Below the pieces are notes generated by a model. That model saw nothing but the letters and a program-made list of their open reading frames with translations. It searched no databases and was not told the origin of the DNA. Positions 3,782 through 49,354 of a stretch of 64,000 nucleotides of DNA are shown here, in pieces. The DNA comes from Pseudomonas phage EL. Made by a program: the position numbers and the translations under genes. Numbering within the stretch: the stretch's first letter is position 1; each line of letters starts with the position of its first letter. The DNA lies in sequence record AJ697969.1; one strand, given 5' to 3'.

Positions 3782-4411
3782 ATGGCTTCAAACCTTCCAA
3801 TCCAAACGATCTTCCTCGACAAATTCGTCGAGTTCAACAAAGACCGCTACAAAGACCAGGCGGAAATGCTCGCCCTCTTTGACGGCCTGACCCTCGCGGA
3901 CATCACGATCTCCGACATCACCGCCGACGGCGCCAACCCCGAGCTGCAAAGCGCCACGGTCACCTCTGTGAGCCGCAACTTCAAAGGTGTCGAACAAAAA
4001 TGGCTCCCGGCGAACATCAACACTCCGTTCGCCTTCGTGGTGGTGAACAAAGGCGCTCCCCTGACCGGCGAAGACCAACTGGCCGAGCAGACCACCCCGG
4101 GTGCCTACGTTTACCTGGTCGGTGAAGGCGAAGAAGCGGTTCAACGCGTGGGCCTGGTGCTGGCTTCCACCACCACCACTGAAACCCAAGCCGCCGACGC
4201 CCTGGCGCTGTTCAAGGCCAACTTCGAATACGTCCTGGACGACGCCGATGTCGATACTGCCACCGCCAAGGTGCTCAAGGTAACCACCAACCCGTTCACC
4301 CGCGGCGAGCTCGTGTACGAAATTGGTAAGGCTCCGATCATCGAGATTCCGGAAACTGACTACGGTCGTCTGGAATTCAAAGAAATCGTTCAACCCGAAC
4401 CCCAACCGTAA
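3782..4411 (+). CDS. hypothetical protein, GC3-rich; paralogue of the 16098-16691 product
   Basis: 209 aa. N-terminus IFLDKFVEFNKDRYKD..LTLADITISD matches LFLERFIAFNKERYSD..LTLDNTTLSD of the minus-strand ORF 16098-16691. Codons are strongly G/C-ending, unlike its neighbours. AGAGGATAAAGCAATG SD-like. Confidence 0.7.
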   Translation: MASNLPIQTIFLDKFVEFNKDRYKDQAEMLALFDGLTLADITISDITADGANPELQSATVTSVSRNFKGVEQKWLPANINTPFAFVVVNKGAPLTGEDQLAEQTTPGAYVYLVGEGEEAVQRVGLVLASTTTTETQAADALALFKANFEYVLDDADVDTATAKVLKVTTNPFTRGELVYEIGKAPIIEIPETDYGRLEFKEIVQPEPQP

Positions 4412-4420
4412 GCTAGATAA

Positions 4421-4448
4421 CTACCAAGTGGGCTAGCCCACTTGGTAG
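4421..4448 (+). terminator. hairpin terminator (stem only)
   Basis: ctaccaagtgggc tagc cccacttggtag perfect inverted repeat directly after the stop. Confidence 0.5.
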
Positions 4449-4566
4449 TTTACCTCTCTTCGTACCTCATTTCAATTCCAGTGAATTTCAAATCTACATC
4501 ATCAGTGTGAGCCAGGGGCAATAAAAGTTCACGGATGAATGAATTCTCTTGCAACTGGTGCTTTAA

Positions 4567-5148
4567 ATGTCATTAGGAATATTCACCATGAGTATGAGTA
4601 CTGCTAAAAGGGGTAACTTTTCTACGTCCCCCGGCAAGGAAGACGATGATCTTCCTCTGCACGAGATCCGGGATGCCTTTAATCCCGCGTTTGTGAAAAC
4701 GTTTGACAAACTGGGCCTCGACCCACAATTGATCAAAGAGTTTATTTACGCGCTTGATCTGCTCGACAACATCGTTAAGACCCCCAACTTCGTATCGGGC
4801 AGAATTCTGAATAACCGAGATATCGAAGCGTACGGCGAAGAAGCGGTCTTCGCGTTCAACCGGAATAACAATATCCCGTACTACTACGTGCGGTTGGGTA
4901 TTACCGTGTCGGAAACGGTGTACAAATTGCAGGACGAGTTTCTGGAACGTGATTATCCCAAAACGATCCTGAGTATTCTCCGCCCCATGCGCACGCCCGG
5001 TATTGACGTGACCGTAGACGGCCATCCTTACAACGTAGGGATTACCTTCAAAACGCCTCATCCTTTGTTCGGTTTGGTGAATTACCAAGATCTCCGGACT
5101 GGGATGAACACTTCAGTCCCCTTCCTACTCACTCGGGTGGGACTTTGA
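4567..5148 (+). CDS. hypothetical protein
   Basis: 193-aa ORF. An internal ATG at 4588 with AGGAA SD may be the true start. Confidence 0.5.
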   Translation: MSLGIFTMSMSTAKRGNFSTSPGKEDDDLPLHEIRDAFNPAFVKTFDKLGLDPQLIKEFIYALDLLDNIVKTPNFVSGRILNNRDIEAYGEEAVFAFNRNNNIPYYYVRLGITVSETVYKLQDEFLERDYPKTILSILRPMRTPGIDVTVDGHPYNVGITFKTPHPLFGLVNYQDLRTGMNTSVPFLLTRVGL

Positions 5149-11481: not shown

Positions 11482-14400
11482 TTAAGGAACAACAGCCCCC
11501 AACGCACCAATCCATTTGGTTCCATTCCAGGTAAAGACGTAGACCAGTTCAGATCCACTGACGGATGGGGGAGTTCCGTTATGCCACACCAAGGGTGTTG
11601 CATCCTTACCAGCGAAGGTCACAACACCCGCTCCGCCGGTGACATTAACCGTCAGGACCATCCCACGTACCGGGGCTTTAGGTCCATCAGCAATCACCAT
11701 TTGCTTACCCCCCGCCGCGGTGTTATTGATCTGGATGTACTGATCCACCAACGGATTGATTTCCCCACTGGTCGTAAAGACCTTAATCGGCAAATCATAG
11801 CGGTCAAAGGTGAGATCCAACTCCTTCCATTCAGGAATATCCGTACCGGCACGGAAGACCCGAACGTACTGTTTACCATCCTTGGCTTGGAGGTCTTCAA
11901 TACCCTTCGGAAACTCAATAGCTTTCCATTCGGTACCGTCACCTTCTGCATTGACAGCCTGGGCGTAATACGACCCTGGAACCGCATTCGGTACGGGACC
12001 AATAGGGAGGGGGACCCAACGGTTACCCAACCGGACAACCCGGCCTTCAGACTCCATGGGGGAATTGACATCACCCGCCACCAAACGCCCCCACAGGACC
12101 CAACCCCGATCAACGGTCTTGTAGAACACATTGAAGGTCTCAGAGACTGCCCAGTCACCGACTCGACCACTGAAGGCATCCGAAGGTGCGTCTACACCCG
12201 GCGGCAACGTAAGCCACCGGCTGCCTTGCTCACCCTGAATACCGGGTTTCCCTTGAGGTCCGGGAGGACCGTCACCCCCGGTCTTACCGGTTTGACCGCG
12301 CCATTCACCGGTTTCACGCCAGGCGTTAGTCGACGTACTCCAGATGGCTAGGGTGTTGGACTCCGCCAGGTAATACGCATCCCCCGCAACCCCCGCAGGA
12401 ATAGCCGCTTGTAAAGCTGCCAGGTTCGCATAATCCCCTTTAATGGGTACCGTAGGACCTTCGGGGCCTTGTTCACCCCGTTCCCCGTTCTTACCCGGTT
12501 CACCCCGGAAATCAAACCCAGGACTCCACTCGCGCTCATCATTCACGAAATACGTTAAATGATTCTCCAGAACGAGGATAGCGTCACCTTGCTTATAACC
12601 ACCTGACGCAGGCAGTTCCGCCAAGGTGGGTACCACATCCACCATGTTCAACCCAGCACCGGGAGCGCCATCACTCCCTGGCATGGACACCGGACCCACG
12701 TTATCCCAACGAGTTCCGGTATTCACCCAGAGGTCTTTATTCAGGTCAACGTAGGCTTTACCTTGAGTTTCCTCGTTAATCGGAGGAGGATCGGCATCCG
12801 CAGGTGTCAGGACCTTAATGATGTCCAAGGACTTACCATTCAGGCCATCCTTACCGTCCTCACCATCCTTCCCTTTAAAGACACCCAGATTCGCCCATGC
12901 ATTCGAAATGAATCCATAGATCGCGTTTTCATCACGAACAGCATAGACCCATTGATCTTCAGGATTCGCAGGAAGATCCGCTACTGTGTCAACCACACCC
13001 CGAAGAACAATGTTGGTACCGTCACGACCATGGAGGCTGGCTAGGAACTCCTCTTCACTGCCGGTGTTCCCTTTGGAAATCCAGAGTTCGTACGTGGACT
13101 GGCCATTGATACCATCTTCCCCTTTAAAGGGACCCAGGTCCAACCAGGTCGAACTCGCTGCACTCCATACGTACAACCGAAGGGTGTCTCGTGTCACATA
13201 CCCATCTTGGTTAGCCGGAGGGTTGGGTAAGTTGTCCAGATCAACACGAGTCCCTACAGTCCCCAAGACATTCAGGTTCTCACCGGGTTCGCCTTTCATG
13301 GCCGCCCAGTAATCATCTTCCGTCTTACCTTGGTTCTCGGGTTTATTCAACCAGACCTGAACACTGTTCAGACCACCCGGTCCTGCATCACCCTTTTCCC
13401 CTTTAAACCCCCCCAGCTTCCGCCACGCGCTGTTCAGGTAGATGTACAGGGTATTCTCATCCTGAACCGAATAAACATCCTGTTCTACACCGGGGTTGGG
13501 GAGGTCATCTATGGTCGCTACGGTGTCTTTAACGATCAAATTACGACCGTCAACACCGTTTCTACCATCTTCTCCCTTGAATTGACCCAGAATTACCCAG
13601 TTATTCTCAATCCACATACGGACTGTATTGTCCGCACGAACCGACCAGGCATCCTGTTCAACCGCGTTACTCGGGAGTTCACTGGCCAGGTCTACCGCCC
13701 CTTTCACCACGATACTCTTACCGTCGGTACCGTCCTTACCGTCCTTGCCCTTATACTGACCGACATCAACCCAATCCGTACGGTCTGCAATGTAGATCCA
13801 CAGGTGGCCCGTATCCAACGTCACCCAGCCATGTTGATCAACCGGGTCTTTAGCATTCAGCGCATTACGGTCAGCCACCGTTCCCTGTACCTGAAGGTTA
13901 GCCCCGCGTTCACCCCGAATGGCTTCCTGCCACTCTGTAATGGTTTTGTTCTCGTTACCGGGAATCTTCTTCCAGGTTTCGAACGCATCATCTCCCTGAG
14001 CACCTTTATCTCCTCGTTGGGAAGCCAGGAATTCCTGAAGGGTCTTTTCTTCATTCCCAGGAATCTCTTTCCACAGCTCGAAGGTACTCTTGCCGTCAGG
14101 ACCTCGAATGTTCAAACTTTCCCAGACAAACTCACCCGCTGTTTTACCCGGAACCAGAACATGGATATCATTCCGCCACAGGTAGGCATCTCCGGGTTTA
14201 TTCCCTTCAGGCAGTGGGAGATCGAGGTTGTCAGGCCAAACGCCCAACAGGTTAATCCCCCGTTCCCCTTGCAAGGAACCCGAAGACGCCCATTCGTTAC
14301 CGTTCCATACCCGTAGGGCAAAGTTAACGAAGTACGCGGTACCGATCGGAAGCTCTTGGGTATCAATAGCTTCCAGTTCAGCTTCCGAATTGAGTTTACC

Positions 14401-20386: not shown

Positions 20387-23209
20387 TTAAAAGAGTGAGA
20401 GAACACTCCGGGAGGTATACAAGGAATGGGTTTCAGGTTCATCCCCCATATCAAACATTTCTTGGCCGGTGATATTACCCAACAACTCATGGCCCTGTTC
20501 TTTACTCATAAGAATGTCCACTTGTTCCTTAGACCATTCCATGATGTTAATACTGCGGGTCATAATGTTGAGTTTATCCCCGGTGTCCATATCCAAGAGT
20601 TTAAAGTAACAGGGAGCATCCTGACCGGTACGCCAGGTACGGGCTTGGACCTGTTTCACTTCATACTCTCGGAAAGGGGCATTCAACAGAATGGTCAGGT
20701 TCGCCATAATCAAGGGATACCCTTCCTTCAGGGAATCAAAGATCGCAATCAACGCACGGAGAGTGGGGTCTTTCTCAAAGCGTTTGATATTGGTGTCTCG
20801 TTCGTTGCTGTTTTCACCGTATACTGTCACATTCGGATACCCGACCTTCGTGAGGTATTCCTCGCAGAGTTTAAGGGCATCCACGTAGGAGGTAAAGATC
20901 AGAGTCTTCTTCTCCACGTTATCGATGAGCTCAGGGAGTCCTGCGTGCGCAATGGTGTCTTTAATAGCGTTAATACGGGCTCGTCCTAAAACGTTCCCTA
21001 AGGCCTCTCCACGCAGTTTTAGACCCAAGTACTTAACCGCGGACTTAATGTTCCTGAAATCCTTCAGGGTGGTCCCTTTAAGGCCCTTCTCGATGTCTTC
21101 TTCCACCAGCTTACAGAACTGACTGTCTTGGTTATCCGTAAAACTGTTGTACCCCCGGGTTCTGAACCGGTGAACAATCTGTTTGTACTTCACCAGATTC
21201 TCAACCGCTTTAGCATTCCCCTGGATAGACAATTCATACGACGTCATAACATCGTTGTAGAATTCCAGGAAGCTCGGCATATGCTTCGTATAGAACGCAA
21301 TCCGTTCTCCAATGTAAATCTGCATTTGGAGGCGAATAGCATCCAAGGTGTATTGATCCGAATTCGGGATCTTCACCTTAACCAGTTCCATAGGAGGAGG
21401 ATCGCCCAATCCCACCAGTTCAGGAATGGTGAACTTCATACGTCCAATACGTCTACTCAGCAAATCCATTAACGAGGGACGGTTACGTCCATAGGACGCC
21501 ATAAAGAACTCCCGAGCCTTCTTATCGAAGTAGGGATCGATCATACAGGTCGTTGGGAAGATTTCACTCCCCTGAGCCTTTAGCGGCGTCCCTGACATCG
21601 GAAGGTGATGCCCGAACAGTTCCATGTCGCACCATTCGATCAACTTCCGTGTACGGGCTGCTTTAGGGTCATTGAAGTTCTGGGATTCATCCAGAATCAT
21701 CTTCAAAGCGCCTTTATGCTTCTTACTCAGCGCAATGAGGAAGTTCTCCAAGTATTTCCCCATACCACTGGTCATGTAATCGTAATGGACGATGTAGAAG
21801 TCATACCCTTCTTCTAAGACCTTACCGCTGATACTGGTCCAGATACGGGGTGGAACCTTAAAGTGCTGGAGGGGTTGTTCTACCCAGACTTTATCCACAA
21901 TGTTCATAGGGCAAAAGACAACCGTCGGAGCCGTATTGATCAATTGAGACCACGCCAAGGACGTAAAGGTATTGTGGGTCACGATGTAGTCATCCACCAC
22001 ATACAGCTTCTCGTCATTATCCAAGGCAATGCAGCAAGTCTCTTGATTCTCCACTTTCTCCCAGTACGCCAGCTTCAGTTGCAGGTCTTCATACTGGGAG
22101 AAGTTATACATTCCTTGAATACGGGGATTGTCTCCAATTAACCCAGTCATCATCTTGCCGACGTCTCGGTGCTTAAAGTCAACCTTATACAAACCGTTAA
22201 CCAACACTGGCTCCGTAGCTGTTCCTCCAATGGACCACATCAACCGACGGAAGTTCTCCATCCCAATCCGGTTCTCGTGATACGCGGATAAGACGGATTC
22301 ACTGATTAAACACCCCACGTGTTCAATCACCGATGTGACTATATTAAAGCGATCCCGATACGGGAGCTCCAATACGTTGTCCCCTATTACAACGTCGGTA
22401 TTGACCAGCTCCCTTGCAGCGACTTCAGAAGACGTATCGCAATGGGGGTTGCATCCATTGATCTCACCCACTAAGGGGAAGTACACATCCTCTTTACGGG
22501 CTTTATGGAGTACTTCCAACGTGGTTAAGATTTCATCGACCCCATTCACCGTGGTTTTCCACAAATGATACGGATGAGAGTCAGCCGTTCTACCGTCTTC
22601 GAAATAGAAGCGATAAACTTCCGTGATCCCCTGGGGGTAAATACTCTCCACACACGCGGTATCACCCCCGGGGGTCACTACGATATCCTTGACCTTTAGG
22701 TCACCCAAGGCTTTCCACCCATTTGGGACTTTAACCCGGGTTGAGAGAGGCATGGCTTTTCCTGAACCCGGTTTAGCATCCAACAACATCCCTTTCAAGT
22801 GATAACTGTTCACAATGATAGGGTATTGCTGAAGAAAGTCCAACTGCTGAGGAAAGGGAACTGTGTTGAACTGATTCAGTTTCTTAAGATCAAAAGGTTT
22901 ACCTCCCGGATTAACCGTATCTTTAATCCAGGTCTCGGTTTCAATGAGTTCCTTCAATTCACTCAACGCTCGTCTGCGGGTACGGAGGTTCCGTATTTTG
23001 AGGAGTTCCCCCACAATGTGGTGCAATTCTACCAGGAAGAAGTTATGCACCTTAATGGTGTCCCAGGATTCGCGTCGAATCTGATGTTTCGTTAAGAGAG
23101 AAGTGCTGTAGAACTTCTCAATGTCTTTGGCTAAATCGTAATAGGACACACCCGTAATGTGTACGTAGTCTCCCGTTTGTTTGATCTTAACTGAAAACAG
23201 TCCTAACAT
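20387..23209 (-). CDS. SNF2-family (SF2) helicase-like ATPase, intein-containing
   Basis: 940 aa. Motif I DAKPGSGK is split from its continuation TFTSLAWSQL by the intein. Motif II is MILDESQNF. Motif VI is QVQARTWRTGQDAPCYFKLL (SNF2 Q..R..R.GQ type). Confidence 0.75.
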   Translation of the reverse strand: MLGLFSVKIKQTGDYVHITGVSYYDLAKDIEKFYSTSLLTKHQIRRESWDTIKVHNFFLVELHHIVGELLKIRNLRTRRRALSELKELIETETWIKDTVNPGGKPFDLKKLNQFNTVPFPQQLDFLQQYPIIVNSYHLKGMLLDAKPGSGKAMPLSTRVKVPNGWKALGDLKVKDIVVTPGGDTACVESIYPQGITEVYRFYFEDGRTADSHPYHLWKTTVNGVDEILTTLEVLHKARKEDVYFPLVGEINGCNPHCDTSSEVAARELVNTDVVIGDNVLELPYRDRFNIVTSVIEHVGCLISESVLSAYHENRIGMENFRRLMWSIGGTATEPVLVNGLYKVDFKHRDVGKMMTGLIGDNPRIQGMYNFSQYEDLQLKLAYWEKVENQETCCIALDNDEKLYVVDDYIVTHNTFTSLAWSQLINTAPTVVFCPMNIVDKVWVEQPLQHFKVPPRIWTSISGKVLEEGYDFYIVHYDYMTSGMGKYLENFLIALSKKHKGALKMILDESQNFNDPKAARTRKLIEWCDMELFGHHLPMSGTPLKAQGSEIFPTTCMIDPYFDKKAREFFMASYGRNRPSLMDLLSRRIGRMKFTIPELVGLGDPPPMELVKVKIPNSDQYTLDAIRLQMQIYIGERIAFYTKHMPSFLEFYNDVMTSYELSIQGNAKAVENLVKYKQIVHRFRTRGYNSFTDNQDSQFCKLVEEDIEKGLKGTTLKDFRNIKSAVKYLGLKLRGEALGNVLGRARINAIKDTIAHAGLPELIDNVEKKTLIFTSYVDALKLCEEYLTKVGYPNVTVYGENSNERDTNIKRFEKDPTLRALIAIFDSLKEGYPLIMANLTILLNAPFREYEVKQVQARTWRTGQDAPCYFKLLDMDTGDKLNIMTRSINIMEWSKEQVDILMSKEQGHELLGNITGQEMFDMGDEPETHSLYTSRSVLSLF
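21971..22756 (-). mobile_element. intein (about 262 aa, Ala1, C-terminal HN, Thr+1) in helicase P-loop
   Basis: Hint block A AMPLSTRVKVPNGWKALGDLKVKDIVV aligns with the CLSGDTLVLTPDG pattern. Block B GRTADSHPYHLW is present. C-terminal block G is LYVVDDYIVTHN followed by Thr. Excising residues 152-413 restores GSGKTFTSL. Confidence 0.55.
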
Positions 23210-44400: not shown

Positions 44401-46118
44401 GGGTCAATGGAATCCACCAATCGAAGGGACGTATCCGCTTGGGACTTGAATTGGTCTTTATCCATTACCCGGTTAAAGGTATCCGCTACCTTTTGGTTAT
44501 GGCTGACCAACTTACCCCGTACGTAGTCATAACTCGACGCTTTAAGGGTATCATCCCCCGTACGGATCTTTTCAATCGACAAGTGAATGTGGCTGAGCAG
44601 TTCGGGGATCACTTCATTCAGGGTACGGGAGGACTGTTTGTTCCAGATCTCCGGTTCGTGGGCATCCATTAACCCCCGACGTTTTAGGCTGTAACGACTC
44701 CCGGTGGGTTGGTACAACTCATCCAACAACCCCGCCATGCCTTTATTCGCCCCTTTCTTCAGGGTATTAATAACCGTCCATTCCACTTTACCCAAGGGCT
44801 TTTGACCTGAACGGAGCGTACTGAGGTATTGTTCGTAGTCCCCGTCCTCGTCAAACGAGGATCCCCAGTTGTGGTATTCCGAAAGGGTATTGACCATTCC
44901 TTCCGCATTACTGAGGTTATACGACGCTATGTTACCCAAATCCGTGAGTTGCGCGTACGCGTTATCCGCCCATTTCCCCAGTTCCGGGAATTGTTTCTTG
45001 AACTTAGCAACGTATTCCTTTCCCTTACGGGAATTGATCATCCGGGGGAGGTTGCTAATGAACATTTGGGCCGCAACGTTACCCACCATGGTCCCTACGT
45101 TGAGCGGCATGCCTTCCGACATCTCCGCCGCCATGCGCATGGCGCCAATCAGGTCACCTGCACCTCGGATTCCGTCCCCTCGCGCATCCTTACCGAACCG
45201 CTCGTTAATAAACTCACGTATTCCTCCAAAGGAGCCTTTAACCGTATTGAAGACCGATTCCCGAATGCTATTACGCATCGCTTGACTGTGGGTGGTCTTT
45301 TCGTAATCACTCTTAGCGGAGTTCAGGGCAATGGTCTTCAGTTCAGCAATCATCCGGTGATTACTGGCTTCCATGAACTTGTAGAACTTCGCGCTGGTCA
45401 AATAGGAACGGGCCAACAGGTTCACCTTGAGGGTATCATTCCTCAATTGAACTTTACGTTGGTAATTCACCATTTGTTCCAGCAGTTGGTTACTCCGCCC
45501 AATACTCAGGTTCAGGGTATTCAACCCCCCAATGGTGCGGCCACCTACTTCGGTCATCATGGCGGTAATACTTTCACCCACCCCAATGACCGTTTCCCGC
45601 TCTAACAGGGAGTTAGCGTCTTCACTCCCCAGTAGGTCTTTCACATCATTTTCGCCCACATTTTCCATGGACGGGGTGTCACTCGCCGACGACGTATATG
45701 GCTTCCAACTGCTGAAGTCATTTTGACTGAACCGAGTCAGCCCACTGGCTACACCCCCGGTGATCTTATTAGGAGCTATTTTACCTAACTTATCACCACC
45801 CCGTTTAGCCAAGTATTGGAGGTCCACGACTGCATCGTAGCTTTCACGTTTAAGTTCGTCTACGATCTCCCTCCGACGACGGTTAATGTCCGACGCCGTA
45901 GTAAAGGCAGTCCCCCAGGTCTTAGGGAGGACCATCTTCAGGGTGTTCAACCGAGCATCGGTGTCCCCTACTGTCTGATTCACTACACCTGACAAAAACC
46001 CGGTTGCTACCGAACGAATGAACCCCGGTTTCTTCCCATCGAAATCGGTATCGAAATCAATATCCCCAGTAAAGGGATCCTCTCCCCAATCGAAATCATC
46101 GAATGTATTATCCGCCAT
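38487..46118 (-). CDS. giant virion protein (tape-measure-like) with GH19-like glycosidase and M15 peptidase domains
   Basis: 2543 aa. Gly-rich TM-like segments (GLLGGLAGMAIY.., FGIFGLLSSLVGG.., GGLGGLLNGLGGLGHLGKLGAGRAGLIGAGALSAY). GH19 signature YRGRGFIQLTGRANY (nt ~39660-40082). M15 zinc motifs SKGAHPKGLALDF...GGHIHAAF (nt ~38940-39185). Pro-rich tail. Confidence 0.8.
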   Translation of the reverse strand: MADNTFDDFDWGEDPFTGDIDFDTDFDGKKPGFIRSVATGFLSGVVNQTVGDTDARLNTLKMVLPKTWGTAFTTASDINRRRREIVDELKRESYDAVVDLQYLAKRGGDKLGKIAPNKITGGVASGLTRFSQNDFSSWKPYTSSASDTPSMENVGENDVKDLLGSEDANSLLERETVIGVGESITAMMTEVGGRTIGGLNTLNLSIGRSNQLLEQMVNYQRKVQLRNDTLKVNLLARSYLTSAKFYKFMEASNHRMIAELKTIALNSAKSDYEKTTHSQAMRNSIRESVFNTVKGSFGGIREFINERFGKDARGDGIRGAGDLIGAMRMAAEMSEGMPLNVGTMVGNVAAQMFISNLPRMINSRKGKEYVAKFKKQFPELGKWADNAYAQLTDLGNIASYNLSNAEGMVNTLSEYHNWGSSFDEDGDYEQYLSTLRSGQKPLGKVEWTVINTLKKGANKGMAGLLDELYQPTGSRYSLKRRGLMDAHEPEIWNKQSSRTLNEVIPELLSHIHLSIEKIRTGDDTLKASSYDYVRGKLVSHNQKVADTFNRVMDKDQFKSQADTSLRLVDSIDPNKELSNEARRVLAMQLVQNADKRKGFSPYLYMNLETKGVNRQVADEIRELFQRNFDITPEAFTAFKEGSTLDRASAIARLPTEQARERAAKLTEQSNLLGRFMPDIAERVDMLRSSGYYNVMKEAGIIKSENGHDEVNMDTFRNVLQSFIDNPDRAMVYDNPLEEAVRKTRSFGRRGRGRRDSGGMIAAENAQLNETLQGVRETLDKLGAHIEQGGVSRSGLTDPSSMFTALNDQVTQGNSLLGKLVELGGNRNDILTKILERQPYEKPTPEAEETLQQQKRSILERIKSTSFGDLFNKGIDKLLDNQPLVLGGLLGGLAGMAIYNPKGAALVGGGLALGMAYNKLRARAAAHRAENTEDLYEEGSDTPILESFKLFKGEYLDMLTGKIIQGWDQITGSIKDLANGAVIGASRLAGKLFTEDNKEVFLKGLNKVRDLFMKAFNWLDPVNRIKGFWDKARTRLYRMDIYIEGEDEPVLLGSRFGKGQYFKRSGDGFVELQGWDEIDGPVYDKEGNTLITAEEYDRGLKTSMGTSINKLGAGLRQAGQFGLDLFGKLKDRAGGYAKGMGGRVKNPFSTDHSPVVNSVDRIYYLLLKHWGYNSPDGSPNPFTPPAPGSQDGPEGPPGSLGDRNDLTLTEALMEKNPALKDALESFRAAKGKAGEGDNTDRFRRSASSNDATRANSLADRAQKLQEEKDNTVKNAIISIAENFGFGMKDEKELGKKKKFGIFGLLSSLVGGVKKGFEWLTSFLGSEVLWSGFSALFKFGRMGLKLLTIIAKGVAGGLGGLLNGLGGLGHLGKLGAGRAGLIGAGALSAYEMYQVATDEETKKLGTTDQILKVGKAGNSLYQQVGATAGLLGGQTIAKWILEKVKGKSPTTDALGSSMYSPFGVMLGTSKWGWDSLFGSGKGKQIELRMVQYGLSDPHGPLAAKILNVENLLKDHVVIGNGRASLSKQAPIEEVLRLFVGNPQDRNEIGEVFTWFNGRFKPVYLTYLACLDAVKLRSLKDYDDSSDLIVYKVAKQAHSALSGLVPSPYQIVAKIDKETPLLDQQMTIIRVGNLLDALKKYVGAKDPTIDPFAVSTVKGQSLESLQKERVQLERKLEDRSTQWKDFGEKMEATDRLKEVKGEIDRLGKAYTANAVVGQIYIQDLMPDGKALDMLTAIRVATYGNDKDVPWRVEAVLKLERHCESLFMAKGDDMVFKGNIGELFARFKDAFRVDDRYADAWCKWFRDRFLPVLTNYMTLMRKYRRGLPGVVWRTLSATARYEIAKELTQTQVNGVFGFTISVWNVRAAPFAWETSPGRSDKVDRMLNLLGEASVEAKLKDPELEAGKTNAQTWAEKISPHRVGGGFTDQQANVSTPEQFRSRRDSALGGMYGTFGGDAGNTYSSDGRFRTPENAFGFTPITGDSDTSHLDMTGVRTNQGTDRGVSVPKPLAEQLIIREMLKQGFTDPREIAEMLALTNYESSGYSRTTENMKYSSPERLVQLFREVKSMEQARALVQAGEVAIANTVYGGGKGASLGNREAGDGYRYRGRGFIQLTGRANYRRVGQELGIDLENRPELASNDPNVMAAIAVNFFRNSKLLRSISQTGDFGRAATGLNGGNPLPEMPQRYALYLNYLKKLQSGELTTADKTAGSGLGSQTGSDLYGQEAPSEPQRPQVSRPAPGVVGGSLPSLNGTMGGGGGQYGSGDNGGMIVNTNTPGSSGLRLKSPEAIAGGEHHPAVEELGKIIQQTVPGFRYFSALNDAYHVNKGSKGAHPKGLALDFTLVNGAQGSDQAVAIVTDILRRAGLSPQEFQVINEYRSRTALGTGGHIHAAFKSPEAANKFLNAVQGGQSVNGQDTTGLGGGVVGPMQRNVPPTPTPTFGNPATDVPISTPRSNEGSPPPSAPQPVPPAPSEPVPQSPRGTEALTTTRSDDSALVAELKASLGKLGDNSSDTNSILAEIYKVLGRMAEMQDKQVNQGTDKTVRLN

Positions 46119-46148
46119 TGTTAATGCACTCCCGCATAAGGAAACCGT

Positions 46149-47594
46149 ATGAAACCGACTAACATTACCCTCTTAGACCCCCGGACGATTGTTCCGGGTG
46201 TCTTTAAACCTATTACGTCTACAGACTCATTTGAAGGGATGACCCAGAACCTCAATGATGACGGTCTCTTCTCCCTTGACATCTTCGGTAAACTGGGTAG
46301 TAAACAACGTGATAACACGGAAGCGTATATCGACGTTAAACTTCCCATCTTCAATCCCACTTACCTAAAAGCCCTTATACAGATCAAAAGTCTGTATCAT
46401 TCAATTTTGAAAGGGTCGGAATACGCGGTATGGGATCCCGAACTGAAGGATTTCATAAAATCGAACATCCTGGAAGGGGAAAAGGGTTTCGCCTTCTTCC
46501 TGAAACACTTCGATGAAACCGTCTTCTCCCTGACCCCCTCTCATAAACGCAAACAACGGGTAGAACTGGCGAACCAATTCCGTAACACGGCGTTAACGGA
46601 TAAGGTCCTGGTCATCCCCGCGGGTCTCAGGGATATCCAATTCAATCCAGATGGTTCCCACACCGAACCTGAAATCACTGAATTCTACCGCGCCTTAATG
46701 TTCCGGGTGAGAGTGATCCTCGGGAATAAGGAAGATGCCCTGAACCCCCTTTACGATACCGTTCGGTGGGGGGTACAGAATGCTTTCTTGGAATTGGATA
46801 ATTACCTCTTTGGTTTACTCCAGGGGAAAGGGGGTGTTCTCCAGCGTCGTATGTCCACCCGAGGGGTTCACAACAGCACCCGGAACGTCATTACCGCCCG
46901 TAAAGTCTCCAGGACACGTTTAGACTTCGACGACGGTGTAGGTCCTAACTCTGCGGACATGGGACTCTACCAAGCCCTGCTGAACTTCCCTTATGTCTGC
47001 ATCAATGCGTTAACCAACGGCTACCTTTCCAACATCTTCACCCCCAGCTCTCAAACCGCTAAGCTGGTGAATACCAAGACCCTGGAATACGAATACGCTG
47101 AAGTCTCCCCTGAGGTGGTAGAGAAATGGACCACCGCCACCGGGTTAATGAAACTCTTCAACGGGTTTGCCGATCCCTCCTTACGGAGTAAACCCATTGT
47201 CATTGAGTGGAAATACTTAGCCCTCATTTATGATGATGGGACTGATGTGTGTGTTCTCCATGACATCAACGATCTCCCTCAAGGGAAAGACCGTAAATGG
47301 GTGAAACCTATCACCTACATGGAACTCTTCTACTTGAGTTGCCACAGTGTCATCGAAGAACAGATTACAGGACAAACCCGGTATCCCATTACGGGGATTG
47401 GCTCTATCTTCCCGGCTAAGGTTAACCTACGTACCACCACCAATGCGAGCCAGCGGGTCATTCGTAATCCGATTGATTGGAGTGTGCGGGAAACCTGTAA
47501 ACGGTTCCCTAAACGTGAAGCCCACCCCGATTACTTCGATGCCATGTCCGTAGACCCCTCTAGAGAAGCTTTGCTCGACAGTGACCATGATTAG
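46149..47594 (+). CDS. multisubunit RNA polymerase beta-prime-like subunit, N-terminal fragment (exon 1)
   Basis: [25 protein letters not shown] aligns with E. coli beta-prime [39 protein letters not shown] occupies the place of the NADFDGDQMAVH catalytic loop. The stop TAG 47592-47594 coincides with the start of the group I intron. Confidence 0.7.
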   Translation: [481 protein letters not shown]

Positions 47595-49354
47595 ATAGTG
47601 ATGCATGATATAAACTCACTATACAACTCCTATTGTATGCGGAAGTGTTCGCATTCGACCATAAGGAGTTGTAAAGATGCTAACGTGTTTTGGAAAGAAA
47701 TACGTGTTGTCTACAACCAACACGGTTTACAATGTCACCGATAAGACAGATGTTCCAGTCCATCGGATGACAGACGGGAATACGTTCTTCATCGCACGGG
47801 GCGATGAAAACGAACTGGTTAAGATCAAACTGGGGTTAATGATCCTCCATGGAGAAGGAAAGTTCCATCTTCCTCTCTCTGAATGGGAACAGGTGAAAGT
47901 AGGTTTTCTGGATGACGATACAGGAAACTTTGCAGCGGATAACCTTTACTTGGTCTATCCTGAAGAGGGCATCCCTTACCCTGAACTCTCTGGGTACTAC
48001 TACATCCCTGGGTTTGAACTCAACGCAATCAACCGAGACGGTGTGGTATACCGAACAGTTAGAAAGAATCTTTACCCACCGTATCTGGGTGGTAACACCG
48101 TTCCTAACAGTTTCTACCCCTTTGTTCGACTGGATGTGGTCAGTGGGGATGAACGCAAGTATGTCCACCGGCTACTGGCGGAGACCTTCGGTAAGCCGCC
48201 TAAGGGCTACCCCAAGCTACTGGTCGACCATAATGACGGTAACAAGATGAACTTCAAGCTCTTTAACTTGATTTGGGTTACCGCTAAGGACAACTCCTTC
48301 AAAGCGTACAACAATCAAGAAGCGAGAGCGGACAATAATCCCTTGGAGGTTTTTGACAGGGAATTAGGTCAAGTCTTTAAGTACGTCAGTCAAAATGAGT
48401 TTGCGAGAACCATGGAGGTGGATTCTTGGTGCATTAGTCTGGTACTCAAACGTCCTCGTTCAGTGTACAAGAACAGGTACGTTCTTCGTCGGAAGGGAGA
48501 TACACGTGACTTCCAAGAGATCTGGGACTATAAGCCCCCTGTGGGTAAGAAGATCCTTGCCCGGAATGTCTTCACCGGTGAAATCACGGTGTATAATTCA
48601 TTGGCGGAGGCCTCTAGAGCAACACAGGTAGGGACAACAGGCATCCTGACGTCCCTGAGTAACACCAACCCGAGATCCGCCTTTAAAGACCTTCAATTCA
48701 AGCGGGAGTCTGACGAGACCCCTTGGCCTGATTTGAATGAATACGAACTGGAATGCATCCGGCGCAAGATGCACCCTGCTACAGCTGTGTATGAAATGTT
48801 TGATTCGGTAACCCAGGAGACGTCGATTGTGTATGGCGTTGATGCAGTTACCCGAATCACCGGAGCCAATCCCCGTACCGTTATCGTTTGCGCACGAGAA
48901 GGTAAGTTGCTCCATTCCCGTTATCGTTTCAAGAAACTTACACGTTAACGAGTTTATATCCATCACTTAGTCCGGCTAGGCACGAAAGTCCTAGACCGTA
49001 TTCCTCTGAATTGCTGGGAGTTCACAAAAGTCTGTTGGCTACAACGTAACTGGAAACAGTAAGCGTGAATGCGACCGAAAGGTAGAAAGAACAACAGACC
49101 TGACCTACGCTAACCAATAACGCTAAGGGTCGTAAACAAGGGACAATCAGCCGCTAAGACGCTACCGGGTATTAAACCCTATGCGTAAAGTTCAACGACT
49201 AAGGGAGTTATGACCCTGTACACCTACCAAGGAAGGGGGTGGAAGTGGAGGAGACCTAAGGGGGAATAGACCTATTCCCTACGGTCAAGATATAGTCTGG
49301 CCCTGTTTAATAAACAGGCAGGCACCTGAGTGTGCCGGGTCCTAGTACGGACTG
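47592..49354 (+). mobile_element. group I intron (about 1.76 kb) carrying an HNH homing endonuclease ORF
   Basis: Core elements downstream of the ORF: P-like CTGAATTGCTGGGAG (~49016), Q-like AATCAGCCGC (~49158), R GTTCAACGACTAAGG (49188-49202), S CAAGATATAGTCTGG (~49289-49303). These match the Tetrahymena intron R GUUCACAGACUAAA and S AAGAUAUAGUCGG. Then P9-type hairpins cctgtttaataaacagg, ggcacctgagtgtgcc, gtcctagtacggac. Boundaries are approximate and chosen to keep the frame. Confidence 0.6.
47677..48948 (+). CDS. HNH homing endonuclease (intron-encoded)
   Basis: 423 aa, AAGGAG SD. HNH core LLVDHNDGNKMNFKLFNLIWVT (H-x-DGNK-N....NL.WVT). Confidence 0.8.
   Translation: MLTCFGKKYVLSTTNTVYNVTDKTDVPVHRMTDGNTFFIARGDENELVKIKLGLMILHGEGKFHLPLSEWEQVKVGFLDDDTGNFAADNLYLVYPEEGIPYPELSGYYYIPGFELNAINRDGVVYRTVRKNLYPPYLGGNTVPNSFYPFVRLDVVSGDERKYVHRLLAETFGKPPKGYPKLLVDHNDGNKMNFKLFNLIWVTAKDNSFKAYNNQEARADNNPLEVFDRELGQVFKYVSQNEFARTMEVDSWCISLVLKRPRSVYKNRYVLRRKGDTRDFQEIWDYKPPVGKKILARNVFTGEITVYNSLAEASRATQVGTTGILTSLSNTNPRSAFKDLQFKRESDETPWPDLNEYELECIRRKMHPATAVYEMFDSVTQETSIVYGVDAVTRITGANPRTVIVCAREGKLLHSRYRFKKLTR

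What the first reader, a model, noticed from the sequence alone, without database searches (positions are those of the whole stretch)
21971..22756. Ala1 / Thr+1 intein inserted in the P-loop of an SNF2-family helicase
The Walker A motif reads DAKPGSGK, followed by a ~262-aa insert. That insert has a Hint N-terminal block (AMPLSTRVKVPNGWKALGDLKVKDIVV), block B (GRTADSHPYHLW) and the C-terminal signature LYVVDDYIVTHN. Removing it restores GSGKTFTSLAWSQL, a canonical SNF2 motif I/Ia. The first residue is Ala rather than Cys or Ser. With Thr at +1, this would be a class-2-type intein that skips the N-S acyl shift. The insert is too short for a full LAGLIDADG endonuclease but long enough for a small extra domain.
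Basis: partly seen in the sequence, partly recalled or inferred. Interest (0 to 1): 0.75.

Follow-up and report, generated by a model that had tools for sequence, protein, structure and literature searches.

The report
Class 3 intein in phage helicase

Summary
Window 21971-22756 (minus strand) encodes 262 aa between Lys151 and Thr414 of a 940-aa SNF2-like helicase (20387-23209, minus). Removing it restores GSGK|TFTSL. Intein-free orthologues read exactly that, so the insert is not an integral domain.

The class assignment is wrong. The insert carries the full class 3 signature: Ala1, His64 (B10), Trp66 (B12), Cys242 (F4), Thr260 (G5), His-Asn, Thr+1. Cys242 aligns with catalytic Cys118 of the M. 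smegmatis DnaB class 3 intein. The K|T P-loop site is the classic class 3 site in phage and bacterial ATPases.

The middle 155 aa is a truncated, catalytically dead LAGLIDADG homing-endonuclease remnant. The first motif is deleted. The Asp of the second motif is replaced by Val147.

Splicing residues and exteins are under strong purifying selection, so the intein most probably splices: 107.8 kDa gives 78.2 + 29.7 kDa.

Side finding: in several related metagenomic jumbo phages the helicase exteins are deleted, yet this intein type persists alone at the same locus under purifying selection.

The parts
20387..23209 (-). Helicase precursor gene, 940 codons plus stop. SNF2-like SF2 helicase; orthologues in phiKZ-like jumbo phages are annotated as virion-associated SNF2-domain helicase.
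   Evidence: ORF listed. phrog_62 'DNA helicase' E 2.5e-122. Pfam Helicase_C E 1.8e-8. Best PDB sequence matches of the exteins are Snf2/Rad54-family helicases 1z63, 5gn1 and 1z3i. 97.5-98.7% nt identity to seven Elvirus-type Pseudomonas phages, where it is annotated 'DNA helicase'.
22757..23209 (-). N-extein, residues 1-151, ending in Walker A ...DAKPGSGK (Lys151 = -1, nt 22757-22759).
   Evidence: G148, S149, G150 and K151 are invariant in the orthologue alignment.
21971..22756 (-). Intein, 262 aa (29.7 kDa), AMPLST...YIVTHN.
   Evidence: Absent from RisingSun, OBP and 57 other orthologues, which read GxGKT without interruption.
22718..22756 (-). Block A: Ala1 (GCC, 22754-22756) and AMPLSTRVKVPNG. 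There is no nucleophile at position 1.
   Evidence: Ala1 is invariant in close relatives. 197 of 258 related inteins start with Ala, 19 with Pro.
22553..22594 (-). Block B: GRTADSHPYHLWKT with His64 (B10, 22565-22567) and Trp66 (B12, 22559-22561; the W of the WCT triplet).
   Evidence: Aligns to His65/Trp67 of Msm DnaBi1 6BS8. His is found in 258/258 and Trp in 255/258 relatives.
22082..22546 (-). Middle domain, intein residues 71-225: a truncated, degenerate LAGLIDADG homing-endonuclease remnant (one alpha-beta-beta-alpha-beta-beta-alpha half-domain plus linker helices).
22304..22360 (-). Remnant of the second LAGLIDADG helix, residues 133-151 (YRDRFNIVTSVIEHVGCLI). The catalytic Asp position is Val147 (22316-22318).
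   Evidence: In one search it aligns to the consensus S.eQR.eLLqGLmDTDG. The first LAGLIDADG motif has no counterpart in the window.
21995..22042 (-). Block F: ETCCIALDNDEKLYVV with Cys242 (F4, 22031-22033), the predicted initiating nucleophile. It is preceded by an unusual second Cys241.
   Evidence: Cys242 aligns with Cys118 of 6BS8. Cys is found at this column in 226/226 alignable relatives.
21968..21991 (-). Block G: DYIVTHN|T with Thr260 (G5), His261, Asn262 (21971-21973) and Thr+1 (21968-21970), which is also the Walker A Thr.
   Evidence: VTHN is found in 227/258 relatives; +1 is Thr in 217 and Ser in 36.
20390..21970 (-). C-extein, residues 414-940 (TFTSLAWS...), carrying motif II DESQ at precursor residue 507 and the Helicase_C lobe.
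   Evidence: 54% identity over the full length to the intein-free RisingSun gp211.

Best explanation
This is a class 3 intein inserted at the classic Lys|Thr position of the Walker A P-loop of a jumbo-phage SNF2-like helicase. The phage is an Elvirus-type, phiKZ-like Pseudomonas phage.

The precursor cannot bind or hydrolyse ATP until the intein is removed. This is inferred from the split P-loop.

Predicted splicing path, from the class 3 literature and not shown here:
1. The thiol of Cys242 (block F position 4), positioned by His64 and Trp66, attacks the Lys151-Ala1 peptide bond. This forms a block-F branched thioester.
2. The N-extein is passed to the hydroxyl of Thr+1 (the Walker A Thr), giving the block-G branched ester.
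3. Asn262 cyclises, assisted by His261, and releases the intein.
4. An O-N shift makes the native GSGK-T bond.

The products are a 78.2-kDa helicase and a free 29.7-kDa intein.

The intein once carried a two-motif LAGLIDADG homing endonuclease. In this lineage the first half-domain is deleted and the catalytic Asp of the second motif is lost (Val147). The element is therefore no longer mobile and is inherited vertically. It is kept because only a precise deletion could remove it without killing the helicase.
For: Intein-free orthologues read GSGK|T(F/Y)xSL continuously. Other orthologues carry inteins at the identical site (19 of 80 IMG/VR orthologues have an intein there, and 57 read an uninterrupted GxGK[T/S]).

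The class 3 definition is a non-nucleophilic residue 1, Trp B12, Cys F4, Thr G5 and Thr/Ser +1, mostly in helicase/terminase P-loops (PMC2807308; PMC5050341). All of these residues are present. They align with Trp67/Cys118/Thr137 of the solved class 3 intein 6BS8.

Family statistics: WCT in 223/226 relatives, Ala1 in 197/258, Thr/Ser+1 in 253/258, GxGK as the last N-extein residues in most.

Selection against five sibling phages: exteins dN/dS 0.04-0.07. The intein N-terminal splicing region has 0 nonsynonymous against 3-7 synonymous changes. All catalytic residues are unchanged.

All 12 closest metagenomic orthologues (58-72% extein identity) keep a 260-271-aa intein of this type. This indicates long vertical retention.

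HEN decay.
Against: No experiment: splicing, the block-F branched intermediate and the product sizes are all inferred.

Pfam Hint models do not detect the insert.

Block F position 12 is Lys250 where most relatives have His (149 His against 27 Lys). Block B position 7 is His61. Whether these slow splicing is unknown.

Engineering WCT alone into a class 1 intein did not give splicing (PMC7664689). The signature is therefore necessary but not sufficient.

The middle domain shows purifying selection at deeper divergence (dN/dS 0.07-0.25). This is more than a purely dead remnant needs.
Confidence: 0.88

Rival explanations
1. Class 2 (KlbA-type) intein. With no residue-1 nucleophile, Thr+1 attacks the N-terminal junction directly and there is no block-F intermediate.
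For: Ala1 and a +1 hydroxyl nucleophile are present. Class 2 also lacks the N-S acyl shift (PMC7664689).
Against: [quoted passage not shown] Those have Asp at F4. Here F4 is Cys, with Trp B12 and Thr G5. In the prototype class 3 intein the F4 Cys is absolutely required. A class 3 intein with Cys+1 could not use the class 2 route (PMC5222942).
Confidence: 0.04
2. A non-splicing intein fossil. The insert is intein-derived but inactive, so the helicase stays interrupted and non-functional, or works with the insert in place.
For: Inactive class 3-like pseudogenes exist (Arth_1007, PMC3196547). Lys250 replaces the usual block F His. The endonuclease is already dead.
Against: Arth_1007 lacks the F4 Cys and the B10 His; here every catalytic residue is intact. 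The exteins are under strong purifying selection (dN/dS about 0.05) and are full length (54% identity to the intein-free RisingSun gp211). A helicase with a 30-kDa domain splitting GK|T could hardly bind ATP. The N-terminal splicing region shows zero amino-acid changes among six phages.
Confidence: 0.05
3. The intein, or its HINT plus half-LAGLIDADG module, has a function of its own beyond being a passenger. Candidate functions are DNA binding, regulation or inter-phage competition after release. That function would be why it is retained.
Against: In the window phage itself the middle domain is the least constrained part (dN/dS 0.28-0.56, small counts). Foldability alone must be selected for splicing to work. 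No function is demonstrated. Whether the orphan-carrying phages have a helicase elsewhere is not settled.
Confidence: 0.25
4. An integral, lineage-specific helicase domain rather than an insertion.
For: It is conserved in all seven sibling phages and all 12 closest metagenomic orthologues.
Against: 57 of 80 IMG/VR orthologues lack it, as do RisingSun, OBP and Miami, and all have a contiguous Walker A. Homologous inserts occur in unrelated ATPases such as PhoH, DnaB, AAA+ and terminases. The fold is HINT plus LAGLIDADG.
Confidence: 0.01

Closest known systems
Mycobacteriophage Bethlehem DnaB intein (MP-Be DnaB), the prototype class 3 intein (Tori et al. 2010, PMC2807308)
   Same: No nucleophile at residue 1. 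WCT triplet at B12/F4/G5, B10 His, THN end, Thr+1. Phage helicase host. [quoted passage not shown]
   Different: MP-Be starts with Pro1 and is 341 aa with a full endonuclease domain. The host is a DnaB-type (RecA-fold hexameric) helicase, not an SF2/SNF2-like one. The window intein starts with Ala1 and has only half an endonuclease.
Deinococcus radiodurans Snf2 intein (class 3; Brace et al. 2010, cited in PMC6195587 and PMC5222942; the paper itself is not held)
   Same: A class 3 intein in a Snf2-family helicase. The block F branched intermediate was shown experimentally there (by title and citation).
   Different: Bacterial host. I could not retrieve its sequence or insertion site, so identity of the site was not tested.
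M. smegmatis DnaBi1 (PDB 6BS8) and M. chimaera DnaB1 (6RIX/6RIY) class 3 mini-inteins
   Different: These are mini-inteins (139-145 aa) with the endonuclease fully lost, Ser+1 and a DnaB host. The Msm redox partner Cys48 has no counterpart here (Val47). The window intein instead has a vicinal Cys241-Cys242.
gp41-1 intein (PDB 6QAZ; the engineered WCT version is 6RIZ)
   Same: Best PDB sequence match (E 3.5e-6 for the single sequence, 7.5e-13 for the profile). Phage-type helicase host, THN C-terminus.
   Different: gp41-1 is a naturally split class 1 intein with Cys1. The Ala1/Trp/Cys seen in 6RIZ are engineered mutations (C1A, F65W, D107C), and that construct did not splice (PMC7664689).
Methanococcus jannaschii KlbA intein (class 2)
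   Different: F4 is Asp and there is no WCT triplet. The +1 residue attacks directly. The host is an archaeal KlbA.
PI-SceI / TliVMA / PI-PfuI intein-homing endonucleases
   Different: Those are class 1 inteins with two LAGLIDADG motifs and active nucleases. Here only one degenerate motif is left and it has no catalytic Asp.
Arthrobacter Arth_1007 intein pseudogene (PMC3196547) and yeast HO endonuclease (a domesticated VMA-type intein; own knowledge)
   Same: Both are precedents for intein-derived genes without a real host protein. They are relevant to the orphan copies found in relatives of this phage.
   Different: Arth_1007 has lost the F4 Cys and B10 His and is inactive. Most orphan copies here keep all catalytic residues and evolve under purifying selection. 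HO keeps an active nuclease, which these lack.

Membership tests
Intein (HINT-fold protein-splicing element) | In-frame insertion that is absent from orthologues and whose removal restores a conserved host motif | tested here: met
   GSGK|TFTSL is restored. 57 of 80 orthologues read an uninterrupted GxGK[T/S].
Intein (HINT-fold protein-splicing element) | HINT fold with blocks A, B, F and G | tested here: met
Intein (HINT-fold protein-splicing element) | Protein splicing demonstrated (ligated exteins plus free intein) | not testable with these tools
   Needs expression with SDS-PAGE or mass spectrometry. Expected sizes: 107.8 gives 78.2 + 29.7 kDa.
Class 3 intein | Non-nucleophilic residue at position 1 | tested here: met
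   Ala1, codon GCC at 22754-22756.
Class 3 intein | Trp at block B position 12, two residues after the B10 His | tested here: met
   His64-Leu65-Trp66. Aligned to His65/Trp67 of 6BS8. Definition.
Class 3 intein | Cys at block F position 4 (the obligate nucleophile) | tested here: met
   Cys242 aligns with Cys118 of 6BS8 and is invariant in 226 aligned relatives.
Class 3 intein | Thr at block G position 5, followed by His-Asn | tested here: met
   Thr260-His261-Asn262.
Class 3 intein | [quoted passage not shown] | tested here: met
   Thr414 (+1), which is also the Walker A Thr.
Class 3 intein | Block F branched thioester intermediate; splicing abolished by mutating the F4 Cys | not testable with these tools
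   Biochemical test: C242A, N262A trapping, and thiol sensitivity as in PMC2807308.
Class 2 intein (KlbA type) | Ala1 without the WCT triplet; Asp at F4; the +1 nucleophile attacks the N-junction directly | tested here: not met
   F4 is Cys, and Trp B12 and Thr G5 are present. Per, KlbA inteins are exactly the non-WCT group.
LAGLIDADG homing endonuclease (active, two-motif) | Two LAGLIDADG helices, each ending in a catalytic Asp/Glu-Gly | tested here: not met
   The first motif has no counterpart. The second reads SVIEHVG, with Val147 at the Asp position. Pfam LAGLIDADG_3 does not hit the window intein but hits the FishSpeaker homologue at E 2.7e-9. The fold of one half-domain is retained.
SNF2-family helicase (host protein) | SF2 motifs I (GxGKT) and II (DExx) and the Helicase_C lobe | tested here: met
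   GSGKT after excision, DESQ at precursor residue 507, Helicase_C E 1e-8.
SNF2-family helicase (host protein) | Match to the SNF2 N-terminal domain profile with SNF2-specific insertions | tested here: inconclusive
   No Pfam SNF2-rel_dom hit; only a weak ResIII hit, E 0.005, after excision. The best PDB matches are Snf2/Rad54 proteins but cover only the C-lobe, E 7.5e-5. The SNF2 label comes from annotations of OBP and N1M2 orthologues.

The most novel reading that the evidence does not exclude
The window intein belongs to a clade (HINT plus one degenerate LAGLIDADG half-domain, 250-271 aa) that may have acquired a job of its own. In at least six metagenomic jumbo-phage contigs collinear with this locus, both helicase exteins have been deleted, to within ~20 nt of the intein ends. 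The intein remains as a 270-310-aa free-standing ORF with the helicase's own start codon. This happened at least twice independently. Orphan copies that can no longer splice (Gly or Leu at +1) still evolve under purifying selection and keep Ala1/His/Trp/Cys/Thr-His-Asn. If so, the 29.7-kDa intein released in this phage would be a functional protein rather than waste. It could be a WhiA-like DNA-binding factor or a self-cleaving factor.
Probability: 0.25. Interest if true: 0.7.

Novelty: new member of a known kind. Interest (0 to 1): 0.35.

Why it matters
For annotation: the seven sibling genomes in GenBank label this gene only 'DNA helicase'. Intein segments in related phages drag in wrong labels such as 'terminase large subunit' and 'DarB-like antirestriction', because PHROG families contain intein-bearing members. 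Recognising the intein gives the correct mature protein (678 aa, 78 kDa).

For biology: it is one more case of a class 3 intein locked into the Lys|Thr site of a P-loop. Here it sits in a helicase that orthologue annotations describe as virion-associated. Helicase activity would therefore depend on a cysteine-initiated, potentially redox-sensitive splicing step, as shown for M. smegmatis DnaB (PMC6195587).

The more interesting lead is the set of orphan inteins in relatives. An intein that outlives its host gene under purifying selection would be a bacterial-virus parallel to yeast HO. It would also be a testable case of intein domestication.

Tried and rejected
- Pfam and NCBIfam scans of the insert found nothing. 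I rejected this as evidence against an intein, because PDB sequence, profile and fold searches are all positive.
- Single-sequence AlphaFold gave pLDDT 37 and was useless. I repeated it with a 62-sequence alignment.
- I looked for further inteins inside the window by tblastn and by a family HMM on all six-frame ORFs. There are none.
- I looked for phage EL itself and for literature on inteins in Elvirus. EL was not among the database hits and no paper was found.
- I tried to read the Dra Snf2 intein paper and the 'phage origin of class 3 inteins' paper. Neither is held.
- I considered that the orphan intein ORFs were assembly artefacts. I rejected this because one lies on two independently assembled 236-kb contigs. 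Others lie on 164-219-kb IMG/VR genomes. All are collinear with the helicase locus.
- I considered that they were decaying pseudogenes. I rejected this for at least one lineage because of the pN/pS pattern.
- I tried to find a relocated helicase on the orphan-bearing contigs through two collection scans. Those contigs do not appear. The scans depend on short motif patterns and are capped at 80 loci, so absence is only suggestive.
Full report

Yes. The window carries a 940-codon ORF on the minus strand, 20387..23209. They are preceded by ...LLDAKPGSGK and followed by TFTSLAWSQL.... Cutting them out leaves a 678-aa protein with a contiguous Walker A, GSGKT. Calculated masses are 107.8 kDa (precursor), 78.2 kDa (spliced) and 29.7 kDa (insert).

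**2. Where the window comes from and what the host gene is**

The gene is 97.5-98.7% identical in DNA to seven ~210-kb Pseudomonas aeruginosa jumbo phages, most of them filed under Elvirus/Chimalliviridae. There it is annotated only as 'DNA helicase'.

- It matches phrog_62 (DNA helicase, E 2.5e-122) and Pfam Helicase_C.
- The exteins' best solved relatives are Snf2/Rad54-family proteins, but only over the C-terminal lobe.
- After in-silico excision, a weak ResIII match spanning the junction appears.
- Orthologues in OBP and N1M2 are annotated 'virion-associated SNF2-domain helicase'.

'SNF2-like SF2 helicase' is therefore reasonable. Strict SNF2 membership is not proven.

**3. It is an insertion, not a domain**

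Erwinia phage RisingSun gp211 (54% identical over the full extein length) and Pseudomonas phage OBP gp263 read GSGK-TF/Y-xSL with no insert. Shewanella phage FishSpeaker, Photobacterium phage PDCC-1 and Vibrio phage phiKT1019 carry inserts of 355, 228 and 227 aa at exactly the same Lys|Thr bond.

In a scan of IMG/VR, 19 of 80 orthologues have an insert at that bond and 57 read an uninterrupted GxGK[T/S].

**4. It is an intein**

Other methods are unambiguous.

- phmmer against PDB sequences finds the gp41-1 intein (E 3.5e-6) and the M. smegmatis DnaB intein (E 1.5e-3).
- A six-sequence profile raises these to 7.5e-13 and 1.6e-11.
- An exhaustive HMMER search of 1.84 billion cluster representatives finds 6,159 proteins at E <= 1e-3.
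- The word-indexed search shows the relatives sitting inside PhoH, DnaB, AAA+, SF1/SF2 helicases and terminases. Their precomputed Pfam hits include LAGLIDADG_3, Hom_end and Intein_splicing.
- A single-sequence AlphaFold run failed (pLDDT 37). With a 62-sequence alignment the model reached pLDDT 94.1 and pTM 0.90.

**5. Which class?**

The class 3 definition is a non-nucleophilic first residue co-varying with Trp at block B position 12, Cys at block F position 4 and Thr at block G position 5, plus Thr or Ser at +1. These inteins are found in helicases (DnaB, RecG, SNF2) and terminases, mostly in the ATPase P-loop (PMC2807308; PMC7664689; PMC5050341).

The window intein has all of these:

- Ala1
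- His64-Leu65-Trp66
- Cys242
- Thr260-His261-Asn262
- Thr+1

In the HMMER alignments these fall on His65/Trp67, Cys118 and Thr137-His138-Asn139 of the solved class 3 intein 6BS8. That numbering matches the paper.

I extracted 258 related inteins from the database hits.

| Feature | Count |
|---|---|
| Start with Ala | 197 |
| Start with Pro | 19 |
| Thr at +1 | 217 |
| Ser at +1 | 36 |
| End in VTHN | 227 |
| Full WCT triplet | 223 of the 226 that align through blocks F/G |
| Preceded by GxGK | most |

Class 2 inteins are exactly the Ala1 inteins without WCT, and they have Asp at F4. That signature is tested here and not met.

The Lys|Thr site is described as the 'classic' P-loop intein site. 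In M. smegmatis DnaB the +1 hydroxyl residue doubles as the Mg-coordinating Walker A residue. The same holds here.

**6. Mechanism**

This is inferred from the class 3 literature, not shown here.

1. Cys242 attacks the Lys151-Ala1 bond and forms a block-F branched thioester.
2. The N-extein moves to the Thr+1 hydroxyl.
3. Asn262 cyclises.
4. An O-N shift gives GSGK-T.

Until then the helicase should be unable to bind ATP.

Two local peculiarities:

- Lys250 stands where most relatives have a block F His (27 Lys against 149 His).
- A second cysteine, Cys241, lies directly before the catalytic one. Close relatives have Leu, Ala, Val or Gln there.

**7. The middle domain**

The FishSpeaker intein has two recognisable LAGLIDADG motifs (LMGVLLGDGSL and LLQGLLDTDGT) and a Pfam LAGLIDADG_3 hit.

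A profile-profile alignment of the window-type inteins against 80 full-length relatives is collinear end to end (probability 100%, E 8e-61). It shows that the window type lacks the first motif and most of the first half-domain. It keeps the second helix (YRDRFNIVTSVIEHVGC against S.eQR.eLLqGLmDTDG) and the following sheet and helix (LMWSIGG against LVrSLGG).

- The catalytic Asp position is Val147.
- The model shows an alpha-beta-beta-alpha-beta-beta-alpha unit at residues 133-195.

The 'small extra domain' is thus half of a dead homing endonuclease, and the intein should be immobile.

**8. Is it active and retained?**

Selection against five sibling phages:

| Region | Result |
|---|---|
| Exteins | dN/dS 0.04-0.07 |
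| First 70 intein residues | 0 nonsynonymous, 3-7 synonymous changes |
| Catalytic residues | none vary |
| Middle domain | dN/dS 0.28-0.56 (few changes) |

All 12 closest metagenomic orthologues (58-72% extein identity, 215-238-kb contigs) carry a 260-271-aa intein of the same architecture. Among those, the middle domain has dN/dS 0.07-0.25 at dS about 1.

This fits a fixed, vertically inherited, splicing-competent intein. It argues against a fossil that has inactivated the helicase.

**9. Side finding: orphan inteins**

The nearest database relatives of the window intein include 270-310-aa ORFs that are essentially the intein alone.

*Recent event.* Contig L012 aligns at 79-90% nt identity with the helicase-bearing contig L020 except for two clean gaps. 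One removes N-extein codons ~18-145 in frame. The other removes everything from the codon after Thr+1 to the helicase stop.

*Other orphans.*

- Six IMG/VR loci (L182/L183, L190, L191/L192, L195) have window-type inteins as orphans.
- One orphan lies on two independently assembled 236-kb contigs (L016/L017; L190 is the IMG/VR copy of L017). Others lie on 219-kb and 164-kb IMG/VR genomes.
- Further orphans are on Logan contigs L011, L018 and L019.
- Every orphan with enough flanking DNA (L182, L195, L016, L018, L012) is collinear with the helicase locus, L011 on its downstream side only. The intein-side deletion ends lie within ~20 nt of the intein boundaries.
- L012 keeps the downstream 332-aa gene. 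The others lack about 3.5 kb more, so there were at least two independent events.
- In an NJ tree, orphan and helicase-borne inteins interleave (no bootstrap).

*Selection.* Two orphans of one lineage (L018, L191; Gly at +1, so they cannot ligate) are 78% identical in protein but 68% in DNA. Their pS is 0.86 and pN 0.15. That is purifying selection on an intein without a host protein. Most orphans keep Ala1, His, Trp, the F4 Cys and THN. A few have lost them (P0111, P0180, L195).

*Is the helicase elsewhere?* The orphan-bearing contigs do not appear among helicase hits in two collection scans. Those scans are pattern-dependent and capped, so loss of the helicase is likely but not proven.

*Precedents.* I found no paper describing such elements apart from the inactive Arth_1007 pseudogene. 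Yeast HO is the known domesticated intein (own knowledge).

**10. Other inteins**

The window holds only this one. The nearly identical phage IR-QUMS-PaBa1 has three more class 3-type inteins outside the window's range. They lie in two genes annotated 'terminase large subunit' and one hypothetical gene. Two sibling phages have only one intein-like place.

**11. Verdict**

The element is a new, unannotated member of a large and well-described kind: a class 3 intein at the Walker A Lys|Thr site of a phage ATPase, with a decayed LAGLIDADG domain. Interest in the finding itself is modest. The orphan copies in relatives are the part worth following up.

Noticed in passing
L012:954-1883 compared with L020:4001-6844; L016:5001-5840 (= L017, L190); L018:3919-4743; L011:162-1025; L019:592-1428; L182/L183, L191/L192 and L195 at about 4001-4800: Free-standing 'orphan' inteins of the window type sit at the helicase's syntenic locus in metagenomic jumbo phages. 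Both exteins are deleted to within ~20 nt of the intein ends, and the helicase start codon is kept. This happened at least twice independently. One orphan lineage with Gly at +1 is under clear purifying selection (pS 0.86, pN 0.15). The orphan-bearing 236-kb and 219-kb contigs were not among the helicase hits.
   Followed up: partly
L014 (OP599913.1 125000-174999): 45637-46719, 48502-49239 and 11870-12736: The sibling phage IR-QUMS-PaBa1 has three further class 3-type inteins outside the window's range: AAGK|AGVLSS...TQCI...VTHN|S, GFGK|MQPLYA...AQCI...VTHN|T (Met at position 1), and one ending ...TCI...VTHN|T. They lie in two CDS annotated 'terminase large subunit' and one hypothetical CDS. 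Phages GXNNE2 and GXNNA8 show only one intein-like place, so intein content varies among near-identical phages.
   Followed up: partly
window 22031-22036 (minus strand), intein Cys241-Cys242: A vicinal cysteine pair: the predicted catalytic F4 Cys is directly preceded by another Cys. Relatives have Gln, Leu, Ala or Val there. The pair is conserved in all six Elvirus-type sequences compared. It could matter for redox or metal control of splicing, but this was not tested.
   Followed up: no
window 21971-22756; The intein's N-terminal region hits PHROG families named 'terminase large subunit', 'DnaC-like helicase loader' and 'DNA primase'. Intein-containing genes in other jumbo phages are labelled 'DarB-like antirestriction' or 'terminase large subunit' in RefSeq/GenBank. 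These labels look like annotation artefacts caused by intein-bearing family members.
   Followed up: partly
P0118 residues 156-844; P0124 residues 132-423: Some relatives have two inteins back to back. In P0118 a first intein ends ...VTHN and is followed at once by a second starting CTTEDT. In P0124 two mini-inteins are separated by only 'TGK'. These look like tandem or re-invaded P-loop sites.
   Followed up: no
L007 (PV472050.1, phage MIZ-Pa99): This record's taxonomy line places the phage in Pantevenvirales/Straboviridae. Its helicase gene is 98.4% identical in DNA to that of the Elvirus/Chimalliviridae siblings, so this is probably a taxonomy error in the record.
   Followed up: no
L018:882-2045 and L191:865-1008 compared with L020:6865-7863: In the L018/L191 orphan lineage, the homologue of the gene that normally follows the helicase (332 aa in L020) lies upstream, between the DUF7194 gene and the divergent 546-aa gene. 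The locus was therefore rearranged as well as deleted.
   Followed up: no
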